Positions 24 through 28,400 of a stretch of DNA of 64,000 nt are shown piece after piece. The position numbers and the translations under genes were made by a program. This DNA comes from Mayamaea pseudoterrestris (Eukaryota), in NCBI GenBank assembly GCA_027923505.1, contig BROI01000010.1, positions 868,001-932,000 of the forward strand, in the 5' to 3' direction. How positions within the stretch are numbered: position 1 is the stretch's first letter; every line of letters begins with the position of its first letter. The notes below the pieces were generated by a model. It was not told the DNA's origin and did no database searches. It saw only the letters and a program-made list of their open reading frames with translations.

Positions 24-394
24 GGTGGAACGAGGAAGTGTGATCGGAAGGTGCGAGATGGTTGATCATCGTGTCGTACTGGTTCACTTTCAGTATTTTG
101 AAATGAGTACAAGAAATGTGCCGTTCTTCATATGCCTCGGATACCTTTTATATATGCCTGAATTTTGTATACGATTTAAAGTAGAGTTTGGATCCCGCAG
201 GACCACTTTGTGACTCGTCCGGCGCGTGCATGTCTTCCGTCACGTGGCCTCGCCAAGTGAGAGGTGCGCTTGTTAATTGTCACCATGCCAATCGTTGCCT
301 CCAACCATTGACGCGATCAACGCATTGCATTCATTCGATCTTTATATTTTGGCTTGGAGGCAGAGAGAGTCTTTAAAATTCATTGTTACCAAGC

Positions 395-3300
395 ATGAAG
401 AGTTTCTTGCTCGTTCTGCTGCTCTCGACAGTGACAGCGACTACAGTCGATCGACAAGATGTTGGTGTCGAGGCATCCGCTGCAATCCAAGGACTGCTGC
501 AGCAGGTTCGCTTCAAAGTCGCAAGTCTACTGGACAATGGAGCCAAAAGAGAAGCGATGAATGACAATGAAGGTCATGCGCAGGCGCTTATTGAATGGGT
601 TCGATCCAAAACCAAGGCGAATGTTTATGAGCATCTAGAAGCTCGGCCATCTTCGTCAGTGCAGCAGCAATATGCATTGTATGCAACAACTACCATTCCA
701 GCGAATACATTATTGTTTGAAATTCCGCAGGATCTCGTCATGACCCCGACTCGTATTGAGATTGATGACCGCGTTCAAGTGGAGTGGAATGATGATCATG
801 AATACAACTACGGTCACGTTACGCGCGATCATGGCGATACTATGGATGTTCACTTTGACGATGATTCCGTTCATTCACTTGAACGAAGCTTGATTGAACA
901 TGAAGCTTTTCCCGTCAATTGCGGAACCATTCAGCGACTAGTCCAAGAGATTCTTCTCGGCGACTCGAGCAAGTTTGCTCCTTATGTCAACTATTTAAAG
1001 AATCAACCACGTGGCCAGTTACCGGCTGATTGGAGCGAAGCAGGCCAGGATTTATTAAAAATGCTGATGGGATATGAAAGTAACAAAGAATTCGCTCTGC
1101 TTCCGCCGGAATCTTCCTTTGACTGGCTCAAAGAAGACTGGCGAGTCCGTTGCGGTCGACGCGGGGACGATGTTTCTAGTCTAGCATACTACACTTACGT
1201 GCAGCGAAGCTCTGACCAGGTTCTTGTTCCAGTACTCGATATGCTATTGCACTCAAATGCTCCTGATGAGCTGAATACGCGGACTGGACCTATTCGCAAT
1301 GGACGACGGCCAGTCAAGGTATTTTCCTCGCGCGAGATACAAGCAGGTGAAGCTTTGTACGCATCCTACAATCAATGCGCGGATTGCCAAAACAAAAACC
1401 ATATTGGCACGCCAGAACTGCTGCGTGAGCATGGCTTTGTGGAGGATTATCCGCAGCGTTGGATCTTGAGCGACGAAAATGTGGTATCCTTTGACCTGGT
1501 GCCTGAGACGATTGTTGGTATGGATGGAGCTACAATGAAGCAGATCTCGGTAAAATGGATTGATAAGCGGCCATCGCGAAAAAGTTTTGCCTATATGAAA
1601 AATCAGCTACAGCGACTGGCCGACTTTTGCGAAACGGAGCTTGTGTCGTTGGATCCGTCCATTCCTCCGCAAGAACTTGACGTGATTCTGCAATATTTGG
1701 ACGCCACCACGACGGCACTCTCACTTGCTATTAATGCATCGCCATCATCCCATACGTCTAGTATAGATTGTCGCGACACGAATACTTGCGATTTGGATCG
1801 CTTCGACCGATACGAGTCACTTGTTCCGAAGCAAGAGGTTTGGGGCGACGAGCGGCCAGCGACGTGCAACTCTAAGCGGGAGTATGTATTTAACACATGG
1901 GAAACAATTGACGAAGTCAATTCGCGCTATCAAGGAGTTACTTTCTCGGTGAATAATCAAATCAATGACATGTGCTTTGACCTTGACAACGTCGTGCAAA
2001 TATGCTCGAGCTATCGTCCCCACTATCACGAAATGATGGTTCACTTTACGGCGCGCTATCTTGATGAAGTCAAGCGAGTCGTCTTTGTCGGGGGCGGCGA
2101 TTCCATGCTACTCCATGAAATTGTCAAGTATCCGACCCTCGAAAAGGTGGTTGGCCTTGAACTGGATCAGCAAGTGACTCGAAGCTCTTTCAAGTACTTT
2201 GGAACACAGCCGCATTGGGACAATCCAAAGGTGGAGTGGTGGTTTGGAGACGCCACCAAAAGTTTACTCACGCTGCCAAAGGAATACTTTGGAAGCTTTG
2301 ATATGGTGCTAGTCGATTTATCCGAGACAGTCATGGCATTGTCGGTAACGGATGAACTTGACGTGATGGAGGCGCTCGCCTTGCTCATTAAACCAAATGG
2401 CATTCTCGTCAAGAACGAGTATATGTACATGCTCAGTCAAGCCGAGATTTTCAAACATACACTGCACGTTCACTGGTACCACGTTCCTGTTGTTTGTTCC
2501 CAGTCTCTCATTCTTGGAAGCAACGGCATCGACTTCATGCGAGGCAAGTACGTTGATCATGGAATTGACCATTTGTACGAACTTCTTGACGACAATAGTC
2601 TTCGGTATTCCATCGTACGCGATTACGAAAAGAATGAGACAGCACGACAGAACCAATGCAAGGACTATAATCCTATCCAAGAGACGCAGCTCCGAAGTCC
2701 AGGTATCTTAATGCTTGTTGACGTAGAAGGCTCAAGGATCGGCGGCGGCGATCTTAATATGCTTCAAGCTACAATTGTGAATGCCCTGTCAAAAGCCGGT
2801 CTATCGGTTGTCCCGAGCGTGGAGCCTTGGCAAGATGACGATAATGGTCTCGTGGCCATTTTGCTACGCGAAGGATATGTTGTCGCCCGAACGTGGGCGT
2901 CGGAAAGTGTTTGTTCCTTGGACATTCACCTATGGAGTAGTCTCGAGAAGCAAGAACCTGCAAAACAGAATATAATCACCGCTTTTGGCAGCAATCTTTC
3001 TTCTGCATATCGCATTGTTGCTGGTGGCATGTTTGGTGTTGGCTCTTGGAAAATCGACCAAGCTAAGAACGGTCCACATTTAAATGAACTTTGTACACCG
3101 CCGATAACCACGACCACACAACCACATAACTCGACAATGGATCCAATGGTCGTCGAAGCCGCTGTAAAGGAAAGCTTTGCAGCAATTCGTGAGAGCGATA
3201 TCAAGGTAGCAGTTCTCTGTCCGTACGAGGACTGCGGAGTCGTCTTTTCGCTCAAGCAGATTTCTATCGTGGGAGAAATCCTAGAACTACGAGCCTGCAA

Positions 3301-4297
3301 TAATGTCACCGACGGCGCCGACTTTGCCAACGAATCATCGGATATTCTTTTTGCTTGTGAGAAGGAGCTTCGACAGACTCTTGCCAATGCATCGGGAAAC
3401 AAAATTCGTGCCATTGTTATCGATCAACATGCGCCATATGCCCTTGGCCAAATTGTTCTCAAATTGTTTCGAAGCTCGATAAAGAACAAGCGATGGCTTT
3501 CGAGAGATATCCTCGTCGTCGCTCCGATTCTTGTGGCAAAGGATGCATGGAAAAAAGTGTTTGTCGAGACGTTTCGCCGTGATATTTATCTGGAGGAACC
3601 AGTATTCAACGCTGACGTTGTGTTTACTGACCCCACAAGCACGCTCACCATGGCGATTGCGTCCACTGGAAATACTTCTTTCTCTGCAACGCTTATTAAC
3701 ATGGCGGAGCAGATGGAGAATACCACAGGTGTCTTGTCCGAAATCAAGAGTCTTCGAGGTGGCGAATTCATCTTTCAGGATGATTTTATACCGGACCGTA
3801 ACTTTGTCCACGCAGACTATGATCGAGCTGATCCTTACAAACAATGGACGTCGCAGGAGCCCTTGGGCTTTCAGACTGTGTTTCAGCTCGAGCTATTGCC
3901 AAACGCCCGCAGCAAGTTGTCGGCTAGTCGCATAAGTGACATGACCATGGCGGCACTCGCGACTGCGAACCTGGAAAGCAGTGACGAGTACAACTGGAAG
4001 CAATGGGACCTTGCTTCATCGAGCAAGTCTGCCGATGGCGTATCCGCTGGTGATGGTTCTGTCATTACGGTCCTGTGGTCAGAAGGCAGTCTGGTGGTGG
4101 TTTGGGACGGCAAGATCCACGTTGACGTCAATCTCTTTATGTATGAGGAGGATTTTGACTTTGCCGATGCGTTTGTTGCGTCCTTCACAAACATGAAGAC
4201 TGTTTTACGCGACGAGCAACCTAGAGGCAAGGGTCGAGTGGTAAATTTTATGTTTGACCTACCAGATGCAGAGGAACAACCACGTTGGATGGCTTAA
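395..4297 (+). CDS. Multidomain fusion: signal peptide + SET (Rubisco-LSMT type) with inserted Tudor domain + aminopropyltransferase (spermidine synthase-like) + two degenerate AdoMetDC-like domains; putative diatom long-chain polyamine biosynthesis protein
   Basis: Intronless ORF, ATG 395, hydrophobic leader MKSFLLVLLLSTVTA. SET motifs: FAPYVNYL..LPADWS, PVLDMLLHS, GEALYASY, LLREHGFV. Tudor-like DRVQVEWNDDHEYNYGHV..MDVHFDD. Spermidine synthase motifs YHEMMVH, VVFVGGGDS, GLELDQQV, GDA, VLVDLSE. SpeD-like LLREGYVVARTW..SLDIHLW and WSEGSLVVVWDG..DVNLF. Confidence 0.85.
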   Translation: MKSFLLVLLLSTVTATTVDRQDVGVEASAAIQGLLQQVRFKVASLLDNGAKREAMNDNEGHAQALIEWVRSKTKANVYEHLEARPSSSVQQQYALYATTTIPANTLLFEIPQDLVMTPTRIEIDDRVQVEWNDDHEYNYGHVTRDHGDTMDVHFDDDSVHSLERSLIEHEAFPVNCGTIQRLVQEILLGDSSKFAPYVNYLKNQPRGQLPADWSEAGQDLLKMLMGYESNKEFALLPPESSFDWLKEDWRVRCGRRGDDVSSLAYYTYVQRSSDQVLVPVLDMLLHSNAPDELNTRTGPIRNGRRPVKVFSSREIQAGEALYASYNQCADCQNKNHIGTPELLREHGFVEDYPQRWILSDENVVSFDLVPETIVGMDGATMKQISVKWIDKRPSRKSFAYMKNQLQRLADFCETELVSLDPSIPPQELDVILQYLDATTTALSLAINASPSSHTSSIDCRDTNTCDLDRFDRYESLVPKQEVWGDERPATCNSKREYVFNTWETIDEVNSRYQGVTFSVNNQINDMCFDLDNVVQICSSYRPHYHEMMVHFTARYLDEVKRVVFVGGGDSMLLHEIVKYPTLEKVVGLELDQQVTRSSFKYFGTQPHWDNPKVEWWFGDATKSLLTLPKEYFGSFDMVLVDLSETVMALSVTDELDVMEALALLIKPNGILVKNEYMYMLSQAEIFKHTLHVHWYHVPVVCSQSLILGSNGIDFMRGKYVDHGIDHLYELLDDNSLRYSIVRDYEKNETARQNQCKDYNPIQETQLRSPGILMLVDVEGSRIGGGDLNMLQATIVNALSKAGLSVVPSVEPWQDDDNGLVAILLREGYVVARTWASESVCSLDIHLWSSLEKQEPAKQNIITAFGSNLSSAYRIVAGGMFGVGSWKIDQAKNGPHLNELCTPPITTTTQPHNSTMDPMVVEAAVKESFAAIRESDIKVAVLCPYEDCGVVFSLKQISIVGEILELRACNNVTDGADFANESSDILFACEKELRQTLANASGNKIRAIVIDQHAPYALGQIVLKLFRSSIKNKRWLSRDILVVAPILVAKDAWKKVFVETFRRDIYLEEPVFNADVVFTDPTSTLTMAIASTGNTSFSATLINMAEQMENTTGVLSEIKSLRGGEFIFQDDFIPDRNFVHADYDRADPYKQWTSQEPLGFQTVFQLELLPNARSKLSASRISDMTMAALATANLESSDEYNWKQWDLASSSKSADGVSAGDGSVITVLWSEGSLVVVWDGKIHVDVNLFMYEEDFDFADAFVASFTNMKTVLRDEQPRGKGRVVNFMFDLPDAEEQPRWMA

Positions 4298-4392
4298 ATT
4301 TTTCAATCGTAGTTGTGATTAATTACATAAAAATTGTCAGTTTACTACTAATCTTTGTTAAAGTCTGCATATCATTCATTTGTAAATAAATT

Positions 4393-7141
4393 TTATAGAG
4401 GTTGCCGTCGCCAAGATGCAGATCGTCCGCTACTGTCAGGCGTGGCGGGTTCTGTTCCATAAATGTGTTGATGAAAATCTTCGCATTGCAACGCGGGAAG
4501 CGGAAAATGGGCATGTTCCATCAGATGAAGGCCGTCAGCGTCTGGACTAAATGCTGCCAAAGCCAGCCCGGATGTGGGTGGCGAAAGGAAGAAAGTTGAC
4601 TGGTAGTTACCGGCCCGTGTCTCTGGCGAGTAGAGTGGCAGGCTATATAAATCTTGTTGTGACGCCGCTGAAGAGGTCACTTTTGCAAGTGATCCTTGCC
4701 TTCGGAGAGGATGGACGACTTGATATCTAGCTCGAGCATCGTCGTGGCCAGTATGATTATAATCTGGATGTTGGCTCCACGGTGGCGTTGTTGGTCCAAG
4801 GTAGTGTTGAGACGCCGAGGCTGGTGGATGCCCATATTGACTATTGTATTCCGCAAAATATCCATCCGTCGTGTACCTCGGTGTCAGGCAGAGCTGGTCT
4901 GGAATGGTAAGCTTACTAATCTTGGGTGAGCTGTATGGTGGCCGAAGAGGAAGAGGCGACTGCGATGCAGGTCCAGACTTCGCTTTCTTGCTGGGTCGGG
5001 CGATTAATGAGGTGTCAGAAGGATGCGTCGGATACCAATGAGCATCGTGATAGCCGGAGGGTGGATAAGGAGCGCTCTCAAAACTAGTGGTAGCCGCATA
5101 CGGCAGTCTAAATGGATGCACATGGTCATGAAGTGAATTGGCGCGAGCCGAACTCGTCGCAGACGATCCGATTGATGAGCGGTGGTCGTCCACGTACCCA
5201 CCCTTGGCAGGAGACGACTCGCGCTTCGTTGCAACAGGAGTAGTAGACGCTTTGCGCTCGACGGCATTAGGTCGAATGAGAAAGACGTTGATGGCGCCGC
5301 AGACTTTTCCAGCAGACCGATTGTACGCAAGCCGACTGTTCAAAAACATTTGGTAGCGCCGAATACCGGCCTGCATGCCTTGCTCCGGATCAGGCACTTC
5401 CAAATTTGTCCCAACAGGAGACGTAATTCCAATTATATTATCCGTTCCGTATAATTCCAGACTTGTAATGTCGGAATAAGAAACGTACAAGTGCCTGCGA
5501 GCGTTCTCAGCACCGCTGACAAAAGCAGAAACGAGTTTCGGGCGTTCAGAAGAGGTGTCTATTGGATACTGAAACTGCTTGGACTGACGCGTAATATATG
5601 CCAGCATGTCATTCAAGTAGCGCTCTTCTTCCCGAAGCAAGTCGACTTCGCTCTGCAAATTTTCGACTTTGCCGGACACGCTGCCATCGTCAGTGTTATT
5701 TTCCGTCGTGGCTCGTATCGGCCCAGCCAGCCCGAGTCCATTCTTTGGCGGGCGCAAATTCCAAGCGATAAAGTTCTTTCCTTCCTTGGTAATTAACCCA
5801 ATTCCTTCCAGTACATTGGTAATATCGTAAATGCGCCGCTTTGGAACATTCAAATCCGCCGCGGCTTGGTTCAAATCGACTCTACGTCCCTGCGAGCAGC
5901 GCAACAATTGAACAAACCGCTGTGTCAAGAGTCCAAGCGACGAGTTTGCCCCGCCTGGTGTTCCAACTGAATGCAATGGACTAGAGCGATATGTTTGCGT
6001 GGATTGTTGTGTCAAATAGGAGTCCTGCGCCGGTGACGAATACAATGCACTCGAAGCGGATGGCGTCATGTCTGTTTCGGAAGACAGCGTCCGTGGAGGG
6101 GTTGGAACAATGCCAAGAGTAAGTAGTGTCATTGTAGGTGAATGGTGATGTGAGTGATCGCCAATGGAATTGCGAAAGGGAGACGATGATGGAGAATGGA
6201 CATGTGTATTGATAGGGTCGTCATGGAACGTTGGGTCGGAGGCGTTGCCGTCATGAACCAAAGATTCATCAACATAATGGTGAATGTCGGAATCACATTC
6301 AGTATTGTTTGTTTGCGTACATGTTTCATAAGGAGAATGAACCAGCAGGTTTTCGCATTTCGGGTTGACATAGTGTACCGTTGGAGTGAGAATGAAGCAT
6401 TTGAGAATGTTATTGGATCGTTTTTGGCGTCGAAAGGTTGATTGTGGAGGTGAGTCATCGGAATCATTACCAGCAGCATACATTACAGCGTAGAGAATGC
6501 GAGATAAGGAGGAATATGTAGAGAAGATTGAGTCGAATGCGAAAATCATTTGCATTTGCTTGCACAACGACAATGCGGACCACGGTTCGTGAACGCCAGC
6601 ACCAAAACCGCAGTTGAACGACATTTAATCGTTGCGTATTCGTTGCACCTCTCTCAATGATCCAACAGAGTCTCTTGCACCTCTTTCACGTACCTGGATT
6701 GGGACGATGTGCGAGTTGATGCTGCTGCGACCAAGACGATGGTGTTCGAAGCGGCGTCATTCCGATCTTGCGAGTGACATCAGGAGTAACACTCTGCGCC
6801 ATTAAATAAGCTGACGAATTGTGATGATAAGCATAGTGACGATGAACTGGTAGAGGAGGATGATGCATGTAATAGTGACGCTGATCGTGATGTTGCTGCA
6901 CCCTGTCGCCTCGATACATAAAAGAGGACTTGTATTCACACGGATGATGCATACTACCGGTAGTACATGGAAAGGAAGGATGACGATGCTGAGGAGCATT
7001 GTATGATTGCAAAGATTGGCGGCTCGCGGACGACAATGGCATGTCGGGAGCAGCTTGCTCTTCGTCCAGTCGTTCGTCTGCCCCTGCAAATGCAAGACTT
7101 TGCTCATCCTCCTTTGCCAAAGATTCCTTACAAGGCGACAT
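4393..7141 (-). CDS. E2F: E2F family transcription factor; predicted exons 7141-6694 and 6071-4393 (708 aa); alternative in-frame starts at 6483 or 6132
   Basis: Winged-helix DNA-binding domain [49 protein letters not shown], followed by coiled coil and marked box ([25 protein letters not shown]). The upstream His/Gln-rich ORF ends at a donor CAG|GTACGT (6693), which splices in frame to ACAG|AC at 6072. The 5' structure is less certain than the family call. Confidence 0.85.
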
Positions 7142-7534
7142 GGTAGGTGACAAGCTATCCTATCGACTTTTCAGCTGCATGCATCAATGTACTTTCGTTG
7201 CTTTGGTGCGTCCGCAAGTCCACCTCAAAGTCGATGGATGAAACGATCGTCCATGGCAGCAGCATTGGCTCGGAAGGTTCGAACGTCCAATGCGCCGAGT
7301 TTTGCAAATAGATATCTTGACACTTTCATATGAGTCATAGCGCCTCACAAATGACATTGTAGTGAGTATTCATGATTGCATGTCGACCCAAAGCCTTTGC
7401 TAGCGGTATGTACCGCTCCCCGGTACTACTCGTACATAACATACTTCACAAGCTAATGTACGAAACGAGACCGATATGTTCATACTCTTATGACCCCGGT
7501 TTTCGGGACTACCGGACTGTAGTGAATAGCAATC

Positions 7535-9251
7535 TTAGCGCACCCGAGCCTTTTTCTTGGCAGGCTCCATTGCTGCCGCCACAGCGGCCGCCACAGCCGA
7601 CGCCGCAGGTATAGCTACTTGCTTTTCGTCAATTAAACACTCCAGCAACTCATATTCCTCCACGTCTTGTGTCTGCAACAACAAGCTTGCATACTGATGG
7701 TGGGATTCCTCGGGAAACACGCAGTGGAATAGACGAGCAGGTTTGCCTGTGCGCTCGGAAACAAAGCCTGGAGCGCCAGCCTTGTCAATGTCTGTTTCGC
7801 TGATCCAACCAACCACCGTTCCTGTCGATAAAATGGATCGATTAGAAAACGAGAAAAAGGCAAGATATTACTCGAAACATGTAGCAGAATAGACAGTCGA
7901 TGCACAAAATCGCATACGCACCAACTTGCTCCACCGTCACAGTTCGACGGGCCGAAACCCTGTGCGTCGAAGTCCAAAACACTTTACGACCAAGGTACTC
8001 ATTGTCGGTTGTCCGCCATGGCGGATCTCCGCTAGAGCTTTGAGCCAAGGCGGCTTCGTACACTTCCAGAGCCTTTTTCTTGCTCGTATACGTGTCTCCT
8101 TCAGGTGATGTGATTTTAAACTTGTTATTCCCCGTCACTACGGCTGACCATCCTTCTCCCAAGCCAATAGCGGCTGCCGTCATTCGCGGATCTTTGCCTG
8201 TCGTCTCGCGGGGACGAATCAAGCGCTCATCGACGCCAGACTGCTTCGTCCGATCAGAGTAGTGCACTTGATAGACAAATCCCTGACTCGCCGAGTGGGT
8301 GGTGCGTCGTAGAACAGTCGCCTCCCACCATTCATCATTGTACAAAACTTGGACCTTGTCACCCTTTTGAAACAGTGGCTGTCGTGCCAGCAAGTGGCCG
8401 CCCGAGAAGTCAAACGGAGTCGACGATTCCGGATCCCACGACTTGGCCGCCTCCATGGCTGCCCCATGGTGGTAAAACATGTCGCAGTCCAGTGCTGGAT
8501 CACCAGCATAGATACGATCAACAATGCATGAATATGACTTGTGTGTATTTGACATGGTTGCAGTTTTCATCGGTGGTGACGGCAGCGTTACACTTTGAAA
8601 CTCCGTCGCGCTTTGCTTGCTCTCGTCGTTCGAGGTCATTTCTGCACCTCCGTCAGCATCAGCCTTGCCATTGGCAGCAAGTTGCTCGTGCTTCTTCTGT
8701 TCACTATCTTGGTCCATTGCAGCTTCTCCATGTTTAGTTGCCAGCGCTACAGGCGAGTGCGAAACTACCGGTCGTTGCGCTCGTGTTTCATCAAAGCCAT
8801 CCTTCGGTTCGCTTGCTTGCTTTTCCATTTGCTGTTCTCCTCCCCTGAATGCAGAGTGAGAATCGTCGCCAGCCTGTGATGCAACTACTGATGCTGACGC
8901 TGTCTCCGCTGACGCTTTCATAAACGGTTGCTGGTTTGGGCCTTGCACATAGACGGCTGTAGAATTGCCACTTTGGGCGTCAGCAGCATGTCCGATACGA
9001 CCCTCCTCCATAGTAGCCGCAACGGCTTGACTACAATCGACTGCAACTGCTTCTGAAAACTCCTTTTCAGCTTGGTAAGTTTCCGTTGCTGTCAAAGGAG
9101 CAAAGACTCGCTCAAGCGTCCGAACAACTCTCCAGCCGGGTGGATATCCAAGCGCCTCGGCCAACTGACACGCCTGTTTGTCGGTAACTGTAGGCTTTGG
9201 ATCCCATAAAGCCTTTCCGATGTAGTCGAGAACTGTTTGATGAGATGCCAT
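7535..9251 (-). CDS. Tudor/Agenet-domain chromatin-associated protein; exons 9251-7922, 7821-7535
   Basis: FQKGDKVQVLYNDEWWEATVL..YQVHYSD..GVDERLIRP is Tudor/Agenet-like, followed by an MBD-like GW..FKITSPEGDTYTSKKKA segment. Intron 7822-7921 (GTGCGT..CTAAT..CAG) joins the two ORFs in frame (EQVG-TVVGW). Confidence 0.7.
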
Positions 9252-25469: not shown

Positions 25470-28400
25470 TTAGCTCTCCGACGCATAGGTCTGGTTGCGG
25501 TTCGCCGCTGCAATCCGTCGCCTCAGTTCCGCGCGTTGTGCACGCTTTTCAGTCGCGGCCATGATTATTTCGGACGTCGGCTCATTCGAATTGGGCGCAG
25601 CTGACTGCTGTTGTGCGTCAAAGTGCCAAGGGATGAGCGGTGTCGCCCTCGAAACGGTCGGGTCCGGCGGCCAGTCGAAGAATCGATCCTTCTTGAATCT
25701 ACTATATGGGATGGCAACAGATCTGGGCTGAGTCCTGCGATTGGTCACGGATCCCAGCATCGTAGAGCAAAAGACGGGGCGATCGCCCTTCATCTCGACC
25801 GCGTCATCATCTTCCTCTTTCACCTCACGCGCTCCAAATTTTCGCTGCCAAAATGTTTTCTTTTGGGCATCCACCTTTGGCAGTTTAAACTCCCTTTCAT
25901 CAGGCTCGGCCACAACCGGCGCAGCATCACCGTATCCATAATCTACTGCATATCCAAGTCCAACGTCAGCTTCCTCCATTTCCTTTTTAAGCTTGGCTGC
26001 CTTTTCGTCGTCTTCTTTCTGTTTCTTCCTCATGGCTTTCTTCGCTAGGTAGACCCGGACAAACAGATTCTATGAACGGTCTTATGTTAGTCATTGTGTC
26101 TGAATATGTAGCTGGCAACAAAAAACGTTTCCAAGCATACATACCTGAGGACCCACGAGAGCAATGGTCAGAATAGAGAAGAAAGTTCGCCACGGAAACA
26201 TGATTAAAATGATACAAAGCGCACTCAGCGATATAAAGAGCCAAAAGGTCAAGTATGGATCGCGCCATGTTGCCAGGTGAAAGCTAATCCTCACAAAATA
26301 TATGGCGATTCGGATCATACGCATTAAAGGACCAAGGAAGGAAGACGCGATACGGTTAATAGGGTTGGCGCTGCGTTCGTTAAGACCGAGCAGCTTATCA
26401 AAGTCGTCCATCACTTGTTTCCTTGCAGCAGAGCCGCCGAGATTAGCTTCTGTTTGCTTGGGTTGGTCATAAGAAGGTGGCGGATGTATTAGTTCGACAG
26501 ATAATCCAAGCGAAACTTTGTGCAGCCTCGTCTCGACCTTCTTCAGATGCACTTGGGGCGGAGTCTTCGTCTTTCCTTTTGTATCAGTGTTCTGCGGAGG
26601 ACCGATTTTAAGTCGCTTTTTGTTCGCGTCGCGTTCAAACAGGCCAGCTTTTGGTGCTATGACTTCCACGTCGTCGTTCCTCGACTTGTTCTGGAGCTCC
26701 TCGTCCTCATCTTGAGGTTCGTCGTCCAGACCGTACATACCAGTATCCCCGGCCATGCCATCGCCCATGACAGTCTCCTCGTCTCCTTCACTCTCGTCGC
26801 TAGACTCGTCATCCTCTTCTTCGCCACCAGCCGCAACATCCGCTTGCGTTGGTGGTGCGGCCGAGTAATAAACCGACAAGCGACCATGCAGTCGCGTAGT
26901 ATTCTCCCCTGAACGACGAACAAATAGTTAAGTACAAGCAAGTGCGAGTAACAACAACCCAAAAATATGTTGTGTGGCATACCTTGTCGAGCCTTGCTGT
27001 TGGTGCTCGGTGCCAGCGCATCCTCAACGGCAAATTTGGGGTACGAGTCGCGCTCCGAAAAGGGAAATTCTCGATGATCATACTCGGTCACTTGCTCGTC
27101 GCCATCCTTACCATCCTTTTTTGGTGATGATCTTTCCTTGCTCTTGCGCTGTTTCGTCCGCTTGGCTATATAAGCCGGCTCCAAGCAAGGAAAGTCGCGA
27201 TCGGTGCGGTACACGAGTGCCTTGGTGATTTCCCAAAGCGTTACCGGCTTGTAACCCAAATTATAACCATCCCCGCGGACATAGTACTGATGATTTAATA
27301 TCAGTTGAATTAAAAGAAAGCCAACCCAGTACGGAGGAACCAGTCTCGCCGAACTCGCAAGGATGCAGTGCATTCCAGCAAAGAACATGTAGAAGGAAAC
27401 GAGTGGTCGCTCGTATAAAACGGCATCCAGCATCATTACCTTTGCCACTTGCCGAAGATTAAGCTGATAAAGGTTAAACTCCCGCATGGTAGCCCGAAAC
27501 GCCCCTCGTGTATATTTTCCAGGCAGATCAATACCGTGACAAGTGACTGCCACATTTCGAAACGTCTTTGGATCTGCGCACGGAACTGTCGGCTGTCCTT
27601 GGATCAATGGTGACGTTGTAACAATGCTCTTTGGATTCTTAAAGTATGAAATCACTGCTGCTCTCTCATTGAACCAGTGCAAACCAAAGCGCAAGCGAAC
27701 GACCCCTCGTGGTCGTCGGTCATAGATAAAGGTTGAATGTCGAAGCGGGAAAGTCACGTCATATTCCGTATCGGGTCGCAGGGCGGCAATGTCAATAACG
27801 ATGCGTCCACAGAACACGTCATTTTCCTTGTTTTTGCGGCTTTTGCAGTCAAAGACACCAACGTACACCTGCCACATGAAGAAAAAGCAAGCGTTCAGTG
27901 GATTGCTCGTACAACGCGCCCTCAACAATTAATATTTAACGTACCTGAGCATATGCATGGTTGATTGGAAATACAGCGCCTCGTTTTGATGCGCACGGCC
28001 ACATTGGCGATCGATATGACGCTACAACGTCAGTTCCAAATGCCATGTCGGCGCAAACAAAGTAGGCGCAAACGTCTGGTTTTGGACGTGCCAAACCGAT
28101 GCAGCCAAGCAACTCAATCTTAAAGGCTCCCAGACGACCATCACGCTGAGGTGTACCCCATGTTTTCTCTGTCGCCTTTGGAACATTTAATCCCCGATTC
28201 ACCTTGGTTGGTGGCTTAATGTATGTGGTGAGAAAGTCGAAGTGTTTGCTTGGCTTGAGTGAATCCTTATATATTTCCTCCTCCGTCATTTGCACCGGCT
28301 CATCAAAGCAGTGATATGGTCTCACGCGAAACTTGCGCTTGACAGGTTTGGCTGCACCAGTGAAGCCGCCGCTTCCGTGGTAAACCGAGTATCGAGCGCG

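What the first reader, a model, noticed from the sequence alone, without database searches (positions are those of the whole stretch)
6072..6693. E2F gene: 485-nt AG-free zone inside a long intron that is also an open frame, suggesting distant-branch-point splicing with two N-termini
Seen: the coding (minus) strand has no AG dinucleotide from 6558 to 6074 (no CT on the plus strand), where about 30 would be expected at 1 in 16. The zone opens with a branch-like ACTCAAT (~6533-6527) and a long pyrimidine tract (~6526-6490). Its first downstream AG (6073-6072) is exactly the acceptor that joins the upstream His/Gln-rich exon (donor CAG|GTACGT, 6693) in frame to E2F (..HRPNP-D-MTPS..). This 622-nt intron is far longer than any other here (65-175 nt), yet it has no stop in the E2F frame from 6624, with ATGs at 6483 and 6132. 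Established: long AG-exclusion zones mark distant branch points and regulated splicing in animals. Inference: the segment is dual-use, intron in one isoform and alternative N-terminal coding sequence from an internal start in another, with AG purged so scanning reaches 6072. A slow or arrested second splicing step could act as a cell-cycle switch. I know of no description of this in diatoms.
Basis: partly seen in the sequence, partly recalled or inferred. Interest (0 to 1): 0.85.

Follow-up and report, generated by a model that had tools for sequence, protein, structure and literature searches.

The report
AG-free dual-use segment in diatom E2F
A 485-base stretch of a diatom cell-cycle gene (E2F) contains no AG at all, apparently because it is protein-coding sequence in one transcript and the tail of an intron in another, and this arrangement is conserved across diatoms.

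Summary
The minus strand has no AG from 6558 to 6074, against 17 expected from local composition; 0 of 200,000 shuffles reached zero. The next-longest such run in the window is 138 nt.

The window is Mayamaea pseudoterrestris.

The AG-free part of that intron encodes, from ATG 6483, the N-terminus (MYAA..KCFILTP..HYVNP) found at the start of 51 of 120 listed E2F homologues. All four orthologous genomic contigs recovered have an AG-free run of 426-474 nt there, including two from Phaeodactylum tricornutum. Each run starts 81-126 nt (75 in the window) before that ATG, at a CTNAY motif plus pyrimidine tract. Each ends at a CAG in the same codon position.

An upstream exon (VTPD motif, phase-1 donor) is also conserved. 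Sequences of both forms are on record for P. tricornutum and Extubocellulus spinifer.

Dipeptides that force an AG are nearly absent from this N-terminus: 6 observed against 100 expected over 52 sequences.

So two conserved N-termini and a selectively maintained AG-exclusion zone are shown. A branch point about 385-456 nt from the acceptor is the best inference but is unmapped. The proposed cell-cycle switch has no evidence.

The parts
6694..7141 (-). Exon 1a coding part (149 codons plus 1 base; His/Gln-rich; VTPD motif). It ends in phase 1.
   Evidence: 149 of 149 residues identical to P0001 residues 1-149; aligns with the upstream exons of L002, L004 and E. spinifer P0146, with VTPD invariant.
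6688..6693 (-). 5' splice site GTACGT, after exon-end CAG.
   Evidence: Equivalent phase-1 donors are GTGAGT in L002 and GTACGT in L004.
6072..6693 (-). 622-nt intron of the 1a isoform.
   Evidence: the in-silico splice equals P0001 with 0 differences in 708 residues. X3 contig joint 6071^6694, ends CT..AC on the + strand, side 27 letters.
6559..6693 (-). 5' part of the intron, with ordinary AG density.
   Evidence: 8 AG observed against 10.3 expected in 135 nt.
6074..6558 (-). AG-exclusion zone, 485 nt.
   Evidence: 0 AG against 17.3 expected.
6527..6533 (-). Branch-site-like ACTCAAT. The CTCAA core lies 49 nt before the 1b ATG and 456 nt before the acceptor.
   Evidence: a CTNAY-type motif sits at -49 to -57 from the ATG in all 4 lineages. 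CTNAY-type motifs lie 20-43 nt before the AG in the ordinary introns I judged convincing by eye. Function is inferred.
6490..6526 (-). Pyrimidine tract (30 of 37 C/T) just upstream of the 1b start codon.
   Evidence: The equivalent tracts in L001, L002 and L004 are the most pyrimidine-rich 30-mers of their introns.
6074..6483 (-). Coding sequence of the alternative N-terminus 1b ([41 protein letters not shown]...SSET), contiguous with the common exon.
   Evidence: homologous to the N-terminus of 51 of 120 listed homologues. All K/E/Q codons are A-ending, all Ser codons TCN and all Arg codons CGN.
6072..6073 (-). 3' splice site AG (CAG), phase 1, in codons acA|Gac, one codon before MTPS.
   Evidence: The same codon position holds in L001, L002/L003 and L004.
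4393..6071 (-). Common exon (E2F body, stop codon at 4393-4395).
5758..5946 (-). E2F/DP winged-helix DNA-binding domain (PF02319).
   Evidence: 84.7 bits against a cut-off of 25.7, residues 180-242 of the 696-aa 1b protein. Coordinates computed from those residues.
5275..5658 (-). E2F CC-MB domain (PF16421).
   Evidence: 46.9 bits against a cut-off of 33.9, residues 276-403.

Best explanation
The gene is the E2F of the diatom Mayamaea pseudoterrestris, and it makes two proteins that differ only at the N-terminus.

Isoform 1a joins an upstream exon (7141..6694) to the common exon at 6071 by removing a 622-nt intron. Isoform 1b starts at ATG 6483 inside that intron and reads straight into the common exon. 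It carries the N-terminal module MYAA..KCFILTP..HYVNP, which is conserved in diatoms.

The last 485 nt of the 1a intron are therefore also the 5' leader and first 137 codons of 1b. In 1a pre-mRNA the spliceosome most likely uses the CTNAY motif and pyrimidine tract that sit about 50 nt upstream of the 1b start codon, and then takes the first AG downstream as the 3' splice site. Any AG in between would become a wrong acceptor. Selection has therefore kept the whole 1b coding stretch free of AG, through synonymous codon choice and by avoiding the dipeptides [K/E/Q][G/A/V/D/E], which cannot be encoded without AG.

Shown here: the two conserved N-termini, the splice, and the conserved AG-exclusion zone with its conserved boundaries. 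Inferred: the distant branch point (A to AG distance 456 nt here, 385-398 nt in the relatives), and a separate transcription start for 1b inside the intron.
For: Identity and splice:
- The ORF has E2F_TDP and E2F_CC-MB domains above the Pfam cut-offs.
- Exon 1a joined to the common exon equals public protein P0001 (M. pseudoterrestris) with 0 differences in 708 residues.
- That annotation was built from RNA-seq (PMC9724779, passages of section 2.3).
- One X3 contig joins 6071^6694 with GT..AG ends.

1b is real coding sequence:
- 51 of the 120 listed homologues carry the [KH]CF..[TS] motif within their first 200 residues, most beginning MYAA/MYAS/MIA.
- The region around the acceptor (L..PTPP.S..TPST) aligns as continuous protein.

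The AG-exclusion zone is conserved:
- All 4 of 4 genomic contigs recovered have an AG-free run over this region. L001 has 456 nt, L002 and L003 have 474 nt, and L004 has 426 nt. L002 and L003 are P. tricornutum by their 1-5 differences in 753 residues from P0134/P0125/P0037.
- The next-longest runs in those contigs are 60-141 nt.
- Observed against expected AG in the zones is 0/17.3, 0/14.6, 0/13.5 and 0/11.1. The 5' part of the same introns has 8/10.3, 15/22.3 and 19/24.2, and the exons are at expectation.
- The zones are only 59-67 % identical between lineages. In the window's zone, 196 of 1455 single substitutions, 29 of them synonymous, would create an AG.

The boundaries are conserved:
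- The zone begins 75-126 nt before the ATG.
- A CTNAY-type motif lies at -49 to -57 from the ATG in all 4 lineages, followed by a pyrimidine tract.
- The first AG is a CAG at codon position 3|1, one or two codons before [M/A/R]TPS, in all lineages.

Protein-level signature:
- AG-forcing dipeptides in the 1b N-terminus number 6 observed against 100.3 expected over 52 sequences, and 46 sequences have none.
- All 6 exceptions lie 2-5 residues before the junction column.
- The rest of the same proteins show 1299 against 1173.
- As a control, 43 E2F N-termini without the motif show 258 against 235.7, and only 1 of 43 has none.

Exon 1a is conserved:
- L002 778-1243 and L004 ..199 end in phase-1 donors and align with the window's exon: VTPD is invariant, and KRPRxS ends the exon in two of them.

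Both isoforms are on record elsewhere:
- P. tricornutum has 753-aa spliced forms on 2.4-2.6-kb contigs, plus RefSeq XP_002181488.1, and 714-aa 1b forms.
- E. spinifer MMETSP transcripts P0146 (1a type) and P0147 (1b type) are 616 of 616 identical downstream of different N-termini.

Precedent: verified distant branch points at -351 and -275 inside AG-exclusion zones of 380 and 287 nt, and zones up to 438 nt in human and 590 nt in Fugu (PMC1431707, passages).
Against: - No branch point has been mapped. CTNAY-like motifs also occur near the acceptor in 3 of 4 lineages: window CTTAC at -47, L001 CTGAT at -10, L004 CTAAA at -23. None lies within 70 nt in L002. A proximal branch point is therefore not excluded.
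- In the window itself the most pyrimidine-rich 30-mer of the intron lies inside the coding zone, not in the upstream tract.
- The Mayamaea junction contig has only 27 letters on its short side, below the tool's 31-letter rule. It has depth 4.3, and the run's kind is not on record.
- No direct evidence exists for a 1b transcription start in Mayamaea.
- Only 4 genomic contigs (3 further lineages) could be examined at DNA level. L001 shows no exon 1a in its 561 upstream bases.
- The 52 proteins are related, so the dipeptide counts are not independent events.
- Exon 1a similarity is weak (32-33 % identity to the window's exon, 48 % mean column identity over 84 columns). A search with the P. tricornutum exon found only its own cluster.
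Confidence: 0.6

Rival explanations
1. The two isoforms exist as described, but the branch point is ordinary (within about 50 nt of the acceptor). On this view the zone is AG-free because diatom spliceosomes, tuned to 65-190-nt introns, would otherwise pair the 1a donor with any AG that follows a branch-like motif in this pyrimidine-rich coding stretch. The constraint would be decoy avoidance, not scanning from a distant branch.
For: Proximal CTNAY-like motifs exist in 3 of 4 lineages. The zone is 58-65 % pyrimidine throughout, so many cryptic tracts exist. The ordinary introns I judged convincing here have the motif 20-43 nt from the AG.
Against: AGs are tolerated at near-expected density in the 135-503 nt of the same introns that lie upstream of the pyrimidine tract, so not every intronic AG is a hazard. 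The AG-free boundary falls just upstream of a CTNAY plus pyrimidine tract in all 4 lineages. P. tricornutum has no CTNA[C/T/A] within 70 nt of its acceptor.
Confidence: 0.25
2. Isoform 1b is not made from its own promoter. Instead it is made from intron-retaining 1a transcripts, so the switch between isoforms would be a splicing decision, not a promoter choice.
For: In run X3, contigs collinear with the genome cover 6045-6513 beside the joined contig. No transcription start has been mapped.
Against: A transcript starting near 7234 would carry 17 ATGs, including the 149-codon exon-1a ORF that stops at 6688-6686, ahead of the 1b ATG. Translation of 1b by scanning would therefore be poor; this is an inference. 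P. tricornutum 714-aa forms sit on contigs of 2409 and 3504 nt, too short to hold exon 1a, the whole intron and the ORF. Those contigs could, however, be DNA fragments.
Confidence: 0.15
3. The upstream exon and its splice are transcriptional noise or an annotation artefact. On this view the only functional protein is 1b, and the AG-free zone has another cause.
For: Exon 1a is poorly conserved and polymorphic: the X3 contig shows 6 substitutions and a 3-nt deletion in 538 nt. It has no Pfam family.
Against: Phase-1 donors matching the phase-1 acceptor are present in all 3 lineages where upstream sequence is long enough. The VTPD motif is invariant in 4 species, including a centric diatom. Spliced forms are on record in 3 species. 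No other cause explains why the zone ends exactly at the acceptor used.
Confidence: 0.05
4. The AG-free run is a by-product of composition or codon bias (a G-poor, Ser/Pro/Thr/His-rich region), or of a constraint on the opposite strand, and has nothing to do with splicing.
For: The zone has only 13 % G and a skewed amino-acid content.
Against: Composition still predicts 11-17 AG per zone. The other G-containing dinucleotides are at expectation. The same genes use AAG, GAG, CAG, AGY and AGR freely downstream. E2F N-termini without the motif show no depletion of AG-forcing dipeptides. The zone boundaries coincide with splice signals in 4 lineages.
Confidence: 0.03

Closest known systems
AG dinucleotide exclusion zones with distant branch points in vertebrate exons (PTB exon 11, nPTB, GABBR1 exon 23, alpha-tropomyosin exon 3; Gooding et al. 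2006, PMC1431707; passages read)
   Same: A long AG-free stretch lies directly upstream of a used 3' splice site. A branch-like motif plus pyrimidine tract sits at its 5' end. The zone is conserved in orthologues even where sequence diverges. It is associated with alternative isoforms. The size range is similar (380-438 nt in human, 590 nt in Fugu).
   Different: In those cases the zone is non-coding intron. Here most of it (410 of 485 nt) is conserved protein-coding sequence of another isoform, so the rule constrains codons and dipeptides. The organism is a diatom whose ordinary introns are 65-190 nt. The branch point is not mapped here.
Mammalian E2F3a/E2F3b (E2F3b transcribed from a promoter in the first intron of E2F3a, with different first exons; PMC6318215, introduction passage)
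   Same: An E2F gene gives two proteins that share the DNA-binding and dimerisation body and differ only in the N-terminus. The second N-terminus is encoded inside intron 1 of the first.
   Different: E2F3b's first exon has its own donor and splices to exon 2. Here exon 1b is contiguous with the common exon, and the 1a splice has to jump over it. Nothing indicates common descent of the two arrangements. The internal promoter is not shown here.
Exitrons, or coding sequence that is alternatively spliced out
   Same: The same nucleotides are coding in one mRNA and intronic in another.
   Different: An exitron has both splice sites inside one coding exon. Here the donor is in a separate upstream exon, and only the 3' part of the intron is coding.
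Long branch-point to 3' splice-site distances in budding yeast bridged by RNA structure (PMC3239191; search listing and abstract only)
   Same: The 3' splice site lies far from the branch point.
   Different: The yeast cases rely on a stem that shortens the effective distance. The zone here folds no better than shuffles (z = +1.0; 84 of 100 shuffles fold at least as well).

Membership tests
E2F transcription factors | E2F/DP winged-helix DNA-binding domain (PF02319) | tested here: met
   84.7 bits against a cut-off of 25.7, residues 180-242 of the 1b protein.
E2F transcription factors | E2F coiled-coil/marked-box domain (PF16421) | tested here: met
   46.9 bits against a cut-off of 33.9, residues 276-403.
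AG-exclusion-zone / distant-branch-point 3' splice sites | [quoted passage not shown] | tested here: met
   485 nt with 0 AG against 17.3 expected, and 426-474 nt in 4 orthologous contigs.
AG-exclusion-zone / distant-branch-point 3' splice sites | The AG that ends the zone is a used 3' splice site | tested here: met
   the splice reproduces P0001, and in L002/L003 it reproduces the 753-aa P. tricornutum proteins. X3 joint (27-letter side); the E. spinifer isoforms converge.
AG-exclusion-zone / distant-branch-point 3' splice sites | Branch-site consensus and pyrimidine tract at the 5' end of the zone | tested here: met
   CTCAA, CTCAT, CTGAC and CTCAC at -49 to -57 from the 1b ATG, each followed by a pyrimidine tract. 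These match the motifs seen by eye in the local ordinary introns I judged convincing. This is sequence evidence only.
AG-exclusion-zone / distant-branch-point 3' splice sites | Branch adenosine experimentally mapped at the distal site; an inserted AG redirects or impairs splicing | not testable with these tools
   Needs lariat reads or mutagenesis.
Alternative first exons from alternative promoters (E2F3a/b-like) | Two mRNAs with different first exons and a shared downstream body | tested here: met
   (P. tricornutum 753-aa and 714-aa forms). (E. spinifer MMETSP transcripts with different N-termini and 616 of 616 identical downstream residues).
Alternative first exons from alternative promoters (E2F3a/b-like) | A second transcription start inside intron 1 | tested here: inconclusive
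   No 5'-end data. The only pointers are indirect: 17 upstream ATGs in a retained-intron transcript and short contigs carrying the 1b ORF.
Exitron | Both splice sites lie within a single protein-coding exon | tested here: not met
   The donor (6693) follows a separate upstream exon. The 135 nt after it are closed in the exon-1a frame, with TGA at 6688-6686.

The most novel reading that the evidence does not exclude
Since before pennate and polar-centric diatoms diverged, the spliceosome has removed the E2F 1a intron from a branch site about 400-460 nt upstream of its acceptor. To keep that acceptor the first AG, selection has held about 130-260 codons of the alternative N-terminal domain free of AG. 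A splicing scanning rule is thereby written into a protein's allowed codons and dipeptides. Choice between the two N-termini, by promoter use or by efficiency of this unusual splice, would then be a conserved control point of the diatom G1/S transcription factor.
Probability: 0.45. Interest if true: 0.85.

Novelty: new variant of a known kind. Interest (0 to 1): 0.78.

Why it matters
1. It would be the first indication of distant-branch-point splicing in diatoms. It would also be a rare clear case in which the first-AG rule for 3' splice sites constrains a conserved protein-coding sequence. The effect is measurable as missing dipeptides in more than 50 orthologues.

2. Diatom E2F appears to have two conserved N-termini, echoing mammalian E2F3a/b. 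The public models for Mayamaea (P0001) and Phaeodactylum (XP_002181488.1) show only the 1a form. They therefore omit the most conserved N-terminal module (KCFILTP..HYVNP).

3. Because the same architecture is present in P. tricornutum, a transformable model with abundant public RNA-seq, the mechanism can be tested directly.

4. Long dinucleotide-free runs could serve as a simple genome-wide screen for dual-use sequence.

Tried and rejected
Resources that were not available or gave nothing:
- Whole-genome scan for AG-free runs: no genome is held. Only the 64-kb window and about 18 kb of orthologous contigs served as background.
- Sequencing runs: no RNA holder listed. All four runs are of kind '?'.
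- Parts without cover in the laid contigs (X3: 6540-6656, 7242-7475, 4200-4433; X4: several) are not used as evidence.
- Loose end in X3 at 6363: its 30-letter consensus has 0 matches in the window at up to 3 mismatches. It remains unexplained.
- RNA structure bridging branch and acceptor: z = +1.0, so no support.
- Search with the P. tricornutum exon-1a region found only its own cluster, 1 protein among 204 candidates.
- Pfam on exon 1a and on the 1b N-terminus found no family above cut-off.
- ESM Atlas on the 1b N-terminus gave no usable hit.
- Earlier findings of this scan: none.

Literature searches, with no paper describing diatom E2F isoforms or an AG-exclusion zone in diatoms:
- 'AG exclusion zone' + 'branch point'.
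- E2F + diatom + alternative splicing.
- Phaeodactylum + E2F + cell cycle + isoform.
- P. tricornutum + E2F + retinoblastoma.
- Distant branch point / coding sequence / alternative first exon.
- Huysman et al. 2010 (PMC2872877, passages) mention diatom E2F/DP only as unpublished data.
- Supplements were not opened.

Ideas rejected:
- A short 135-nt intron ending at the AG at 6560-6559. Reading by eye, the exon-1a frame then stops after about 30 codons.
- Recursive splicing at the zone start. No GT follows that AG in any of the 4 lineages.
- An exitron. The donor is not in the same exon.

Technical slips:
- Script error, fixed.
- MAFFT time-out, rerun on shortened sequences.
- Frame slip, corrected.

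The intron heuristic returns 110 candidates, most of them false. The choice of about 17 convincing ones, and the branch motifs read from them, were made by eye.
Full report
**Observation**

The minus strand of the window carries an AG at 6560-6559 and then none until 6073-6072, which gives 485 AG-free bases. The next-longest run of this kind in the window is 138 nt. The longest run lacking any other dinucleotide is 255 nt.

Even so, none of 200,000 shuffles reached zero (minimum 5), and Poisson P is about 3e-8. All other G-containing dinucleotides are at expectation, so the depletion is specific to AG.

**What the gene is**

The ORF 4393..6624 carries the E2F_TDP domain (84.7 bits, cut-off 25.7) and the E2F_CC-MB domain (46.9 bits, cut-off 33.9).

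A protein search returned 175 hits with E <= 0.001 among 7999 scored candidates, and 120 were listed. The best hit is P0001, 'hypothetical protein MPSEU_000574700 [Mayamaea pseudoterrestris]', 708 aa.

Exon 1a (7141..6694) is 149 of 149 identical to the start of P0001. Exon 1a joined in silico to 6071..4396 reproduces all 708 residues with no difference.

**Read evidence in this organism**

Four public runs of one study hold the stretch, and none is on record as RNA.

Laid as contigs, X1 and X2 cover the region continuously with long contigs. X3 contains one 565-nt contig (depth 4.3) that joins 6071 to 6694, skipping 622 nt with CT..AC ends on the + strand, which is GT..AG on the gene strand. 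Its short side is only 27 letters (plus 3 ambiguous), below the tool's own 31-letter rule for bridging. I count it as weak support.

The same run also has contigs collinear with the genome over 6045-6392 and 6363-6513.

**The AG-free part of the intron is conserved coding sequence**

Of the 120 listed homologues, 40 carry KCF[IVL]L[TS] near the N-terminus. With a slightly wider pattern, 51 carry it within the first 200 residues.

Most of these begin MYAAD..SPPQ.SFRRK...N..KCFILTP.VHYVNP. This is the peptide the window encodes from ATG 6483 ([41 protein letters not shown]; alignment A1).

The sequence around the acceptor (L..PTPP.S..[D/E].TPST) aligns as uninterrupted protein in these homologues. 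So the intron of the public model contains the family's most conserved N-terminal module.

**Orthologous DNA**

One scan of JGI metagenome contigs with A1 matched 23 stretches. Four were confirmed, giving loci L001-L004.

L002 and L003 are two near-identical copies (472 of 474 zone bases identical). They are Phaeodactylum tricornutum or very close to it. Spliced in silico at 1243^2222, they give a 753-aa product that differs by 1-5 residues from cluster members P0125, P0134 and P0037. P0134 is XP_002181488.1 / B7G3S6.

All four contigs have a single outlying AG-free run over the same region: 456, 474, 474 and 426 nt. The next-longest runs are 60-141 nt.

Observed against expected AG:

| Locus | AG-free zone | 5' part of the same intron |
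|---|---|---|
| Window | 0 / 17.3 | 8 / 10.3 |
| L001 | 0 / 14.6 | no upstream exon found |
| L002 | 0 / 13.5 | 15 / 22.3 |
| L004 | 0 / 11.1 | 19 / 24.2 |

Exon 1a and the common exon are at expectation.

In the zones every Lys, Glu and Gln codon ends in A, every Ser is TCN and every Arg is CGN. Downstream, the same genes use AAG, GAG, CAG, AGY and AGR freely.

The zones are only 59-67 % identical between lineages. In the window's zone, 196 of 1455 single substitutions would create an AG, 29 of them synonymous. The absence of AG therefore has to be maintained by selection.

**Conserved boundaries**

- The zone starts 75-126 nt upstream of the 1b ATG.
- A CTNAY-type motif lies 49-57 nt upstream of that ATG in all four lineages: CTCAA, CTCAT, CTGAC and CTCAC. 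Each is followed by a pyrimidine tract.
- In L001, L002 and L004 that tract is the most pyrimidine-rich 30-mer of the intron. In the window it is not.
- By eye, the roughly 17 convincing ordinary introns of the window carry CTAAC/CTCAC/CTCAT-type motifs 20-43 nt before their AG. The motif class therefore fits a branch site.
- The zone ends in every lineage at a CAG whose A is a third codon position and whose G is a first position. It lies one or two codons before [M/A/R]TPS: acA|Gac atg acg; acA|Gaa atg acg; tcA|Gaa gca acg; acA|Gta agg acg.

**A protein-level signature of AG avoidance**

Lys, Glu or Gln followed by Gly, Ala, Val, Asp or Glu cannot be encoded without an AG.

Results, over 52 sequences (51 homologues plus the window):
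- In the 1b N-terminus (Met to the junction column) such dipeptides occur 6 times against 100.3 expected from within-region shuffles.
- 46 of the 52 sequences have none.
- All 6 exceptions lie 2-5 residues before the junction column, where they may be the acceptor itself, slightly shifted.
- The rest of the same proteins show 1299 against 1173.

An earlier, narrower set gave 5 against 70.9 over 41 sequences.

As a control, the N-termini of 43 homologues without the motif, drawn from P0074-P0120 (named ones are oomycetes, plants and animals), show 258 against 235.7. Only 1 of those 43 has none.

The sequences are related, so these are not independent events. However, outside the short motif the region is highly diverged.

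**The upstream exon is conserved too**

L002 has an ORF from ATG 778 ending at a phase-1 donor, tcga|GTGAGT, after base 1243. L004, whose contig starts inside the exon, ends at gtcag|GTACGT after base 199, also phase 1. The intron lengths are 622, 978 and 826 nt.

The exon ends align with the window's exon and with the N-terminus of an Extubocellulus spinifer transcript. VTPD is invariant, a His/Tyr/Gln-rich lead-in is shared, and KRPRxS ends the exon in two of them (A2). Identity to the window's exon is only 32-33 %.

L001 shows no such exon in its 561 upstream bases.

**Both isoforms on record elsewhere**

P. tricornutum: the P0037 cluster (34 members, 15 listed) holds two kinds of sequence.
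- 753-aa and 742-aa forms read ..SPTKRPRQS-K-ATPST.., which is exon 1a joined exactly at the end of the AG-free zone. They sit on contigs of 2.4-2.6 kb.
- 714-aa forms begin MDSVDNERASPPQ..KCFILTP. They sit on contigs of 2.4, 3.5 and about 11.7 kb.

E. spinifer (a polar centric diatom): MMETSP sequences P0146 (745 aa, 1a-type N-terminus) and P0147 (878 aa, 1b type) are 616 of 616 identical downstream of entirely different N-termini. The 263-residue 1b part of P0147 has 0 AG-forcing dipeptides against 2.8 expected.

Fragilaria crotonensis also has a named protein with the 1b-type N-terminus (P0136).

**Mechanism**

Shown:
- Two conserved alternative N-termini.
- A splice that removes the 1b coding region.
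- An AG-exclusion zone that starts just upstream of a branch-like motif plus pyrimidine tract and ends at the acceptor.

In 1a pre-mRNA the branch site and tract upstream of the 1b ATG are used, and the first downstream AG is the 3' splice site. The A-to-AG distances would be 456, 385, 396 and 398 nt.

This has precedent in vertebrates. Branch points have been verified at -351 and -275 within AG-exclusion zones of 380 and 287 nt, and zones reach 438 nt (nPTB) and 590 nt (Fugu PTB) (PMC1431707, passages).

The main rival is an ordinary proximal branch combined with purging of decoy AGs.
- In its favour, CTNAY-like motifs occur 10-47 nt from the acceptor in three lineages.
- Against it, the 5' parts of the same introns tolerate AGs.
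- Also against it, P. tricornutum has no such motif within 70 nt of its acceptor.

No RNA structure that might bridge the distance is predicted (z = +1.0).

A separate start of transcription for 1b is inferred, because a retained-intron 1a transcript would put 17 ATGs ahead of the 1b ATG.

**Comparison and novelty**

The arrangement works like a vertebrate distant-branch-point exon combined with an E2F3a/E2F3b-style pair of first exons (PMC6318215, introduction passage). There are two differences:
- Exon 1b has no donor of its own and is contiguous with the common exon.
- The AG-exclusion zone is conserved coding sequence.

Five full-text searches found no description of diatom E2F isoforms or of AG-exclusion zones in diatoms. 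Huysman et al. 2010 mention diatom E2F/DP only as unpublished data.

I rate it a new variant of a known kind.

**Verdict**

The dual-use reading is supported and shown to be conserved across diatoms. The distant branch point is the best-supported mechanism but is unproven, at about 0.6 against about 0.25 for a proximal branch.

Interest is high because the constraint reaches into protein sequence, because the public models of two diatoms omit the conserved N-terminus, and because the same architecture in P. tricornutum makes the mechanism directly testable.

Noticed in passing
window 6363-6392 (run X3): One X3 contig (158 nt, depth 4.7) shares only the 30 bases 6363-6392, which encode the conserved PTVHYVNP. 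It continues on the lower-coordinate side into 128 letters that lie nowhere in 4200-7700. The 30-letter consensus printed for that loose end has no match in the whole window. It could come from a paralogue, an allele or an assembly chimera.
   Followed up: partly
window 6694-7234 against 4510-6074 (run X3): The X3 contig over exon 1a differs from the window by 6 substitutions and an in-frame 3-nt deletion in 538 nt. The X3 contig over the common exon shows 0 differences in 1565 nt. X1 shows two other differences in exon 1a (6797, 6806). Exon 1a seems unusually polymorphic.
   Followed up: no
window 25798-26052, + strand: This is the second most extreme dinucleotide-free run in the window: 255 nt without GA on the + strand, which is TC-free on the minus strand. 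The sequence looks like the reverse complement of a purine-rich, probably Lys/Glu-rich, coding stretch next to a candidate intron at 26144-26070.
   Followed up: partly
window 6549-6557: Two further in-frame ATGs (6555, 6549) lie at the very start of the AG-free zone, upstream of the conserved start at 6483. If 1b transcripts begin upstream of them, a 24-residue or 22-residue pyrimidine-tract-encoded extension ([11 protein letters not shown]..) could be translated. Orthologues do not conserve it.
   Followed up: no
P0053 / P0050 (Fistulifera solaris and a relative), P0096 (Cyclostephanos tholiformis): The public Fistulifera E2F3 model (526 aa) starts only a few residues before the TPST junction region, so it lacks both N-termini. 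The Cyclostephanos model (871 aa) has a His/Gln/Tyr-rich N-terminus with AITPD that resembles exon 1a, and it has no KCFILTP module. Diatom E2F N-termini appear to be inconsistently annotated.
   Followed up: partly
window 377-4297, + strand: A 1306-codon open frame lies immediately downstream of the E2F gene on the other strand. It was not examined.
   Followed up: no
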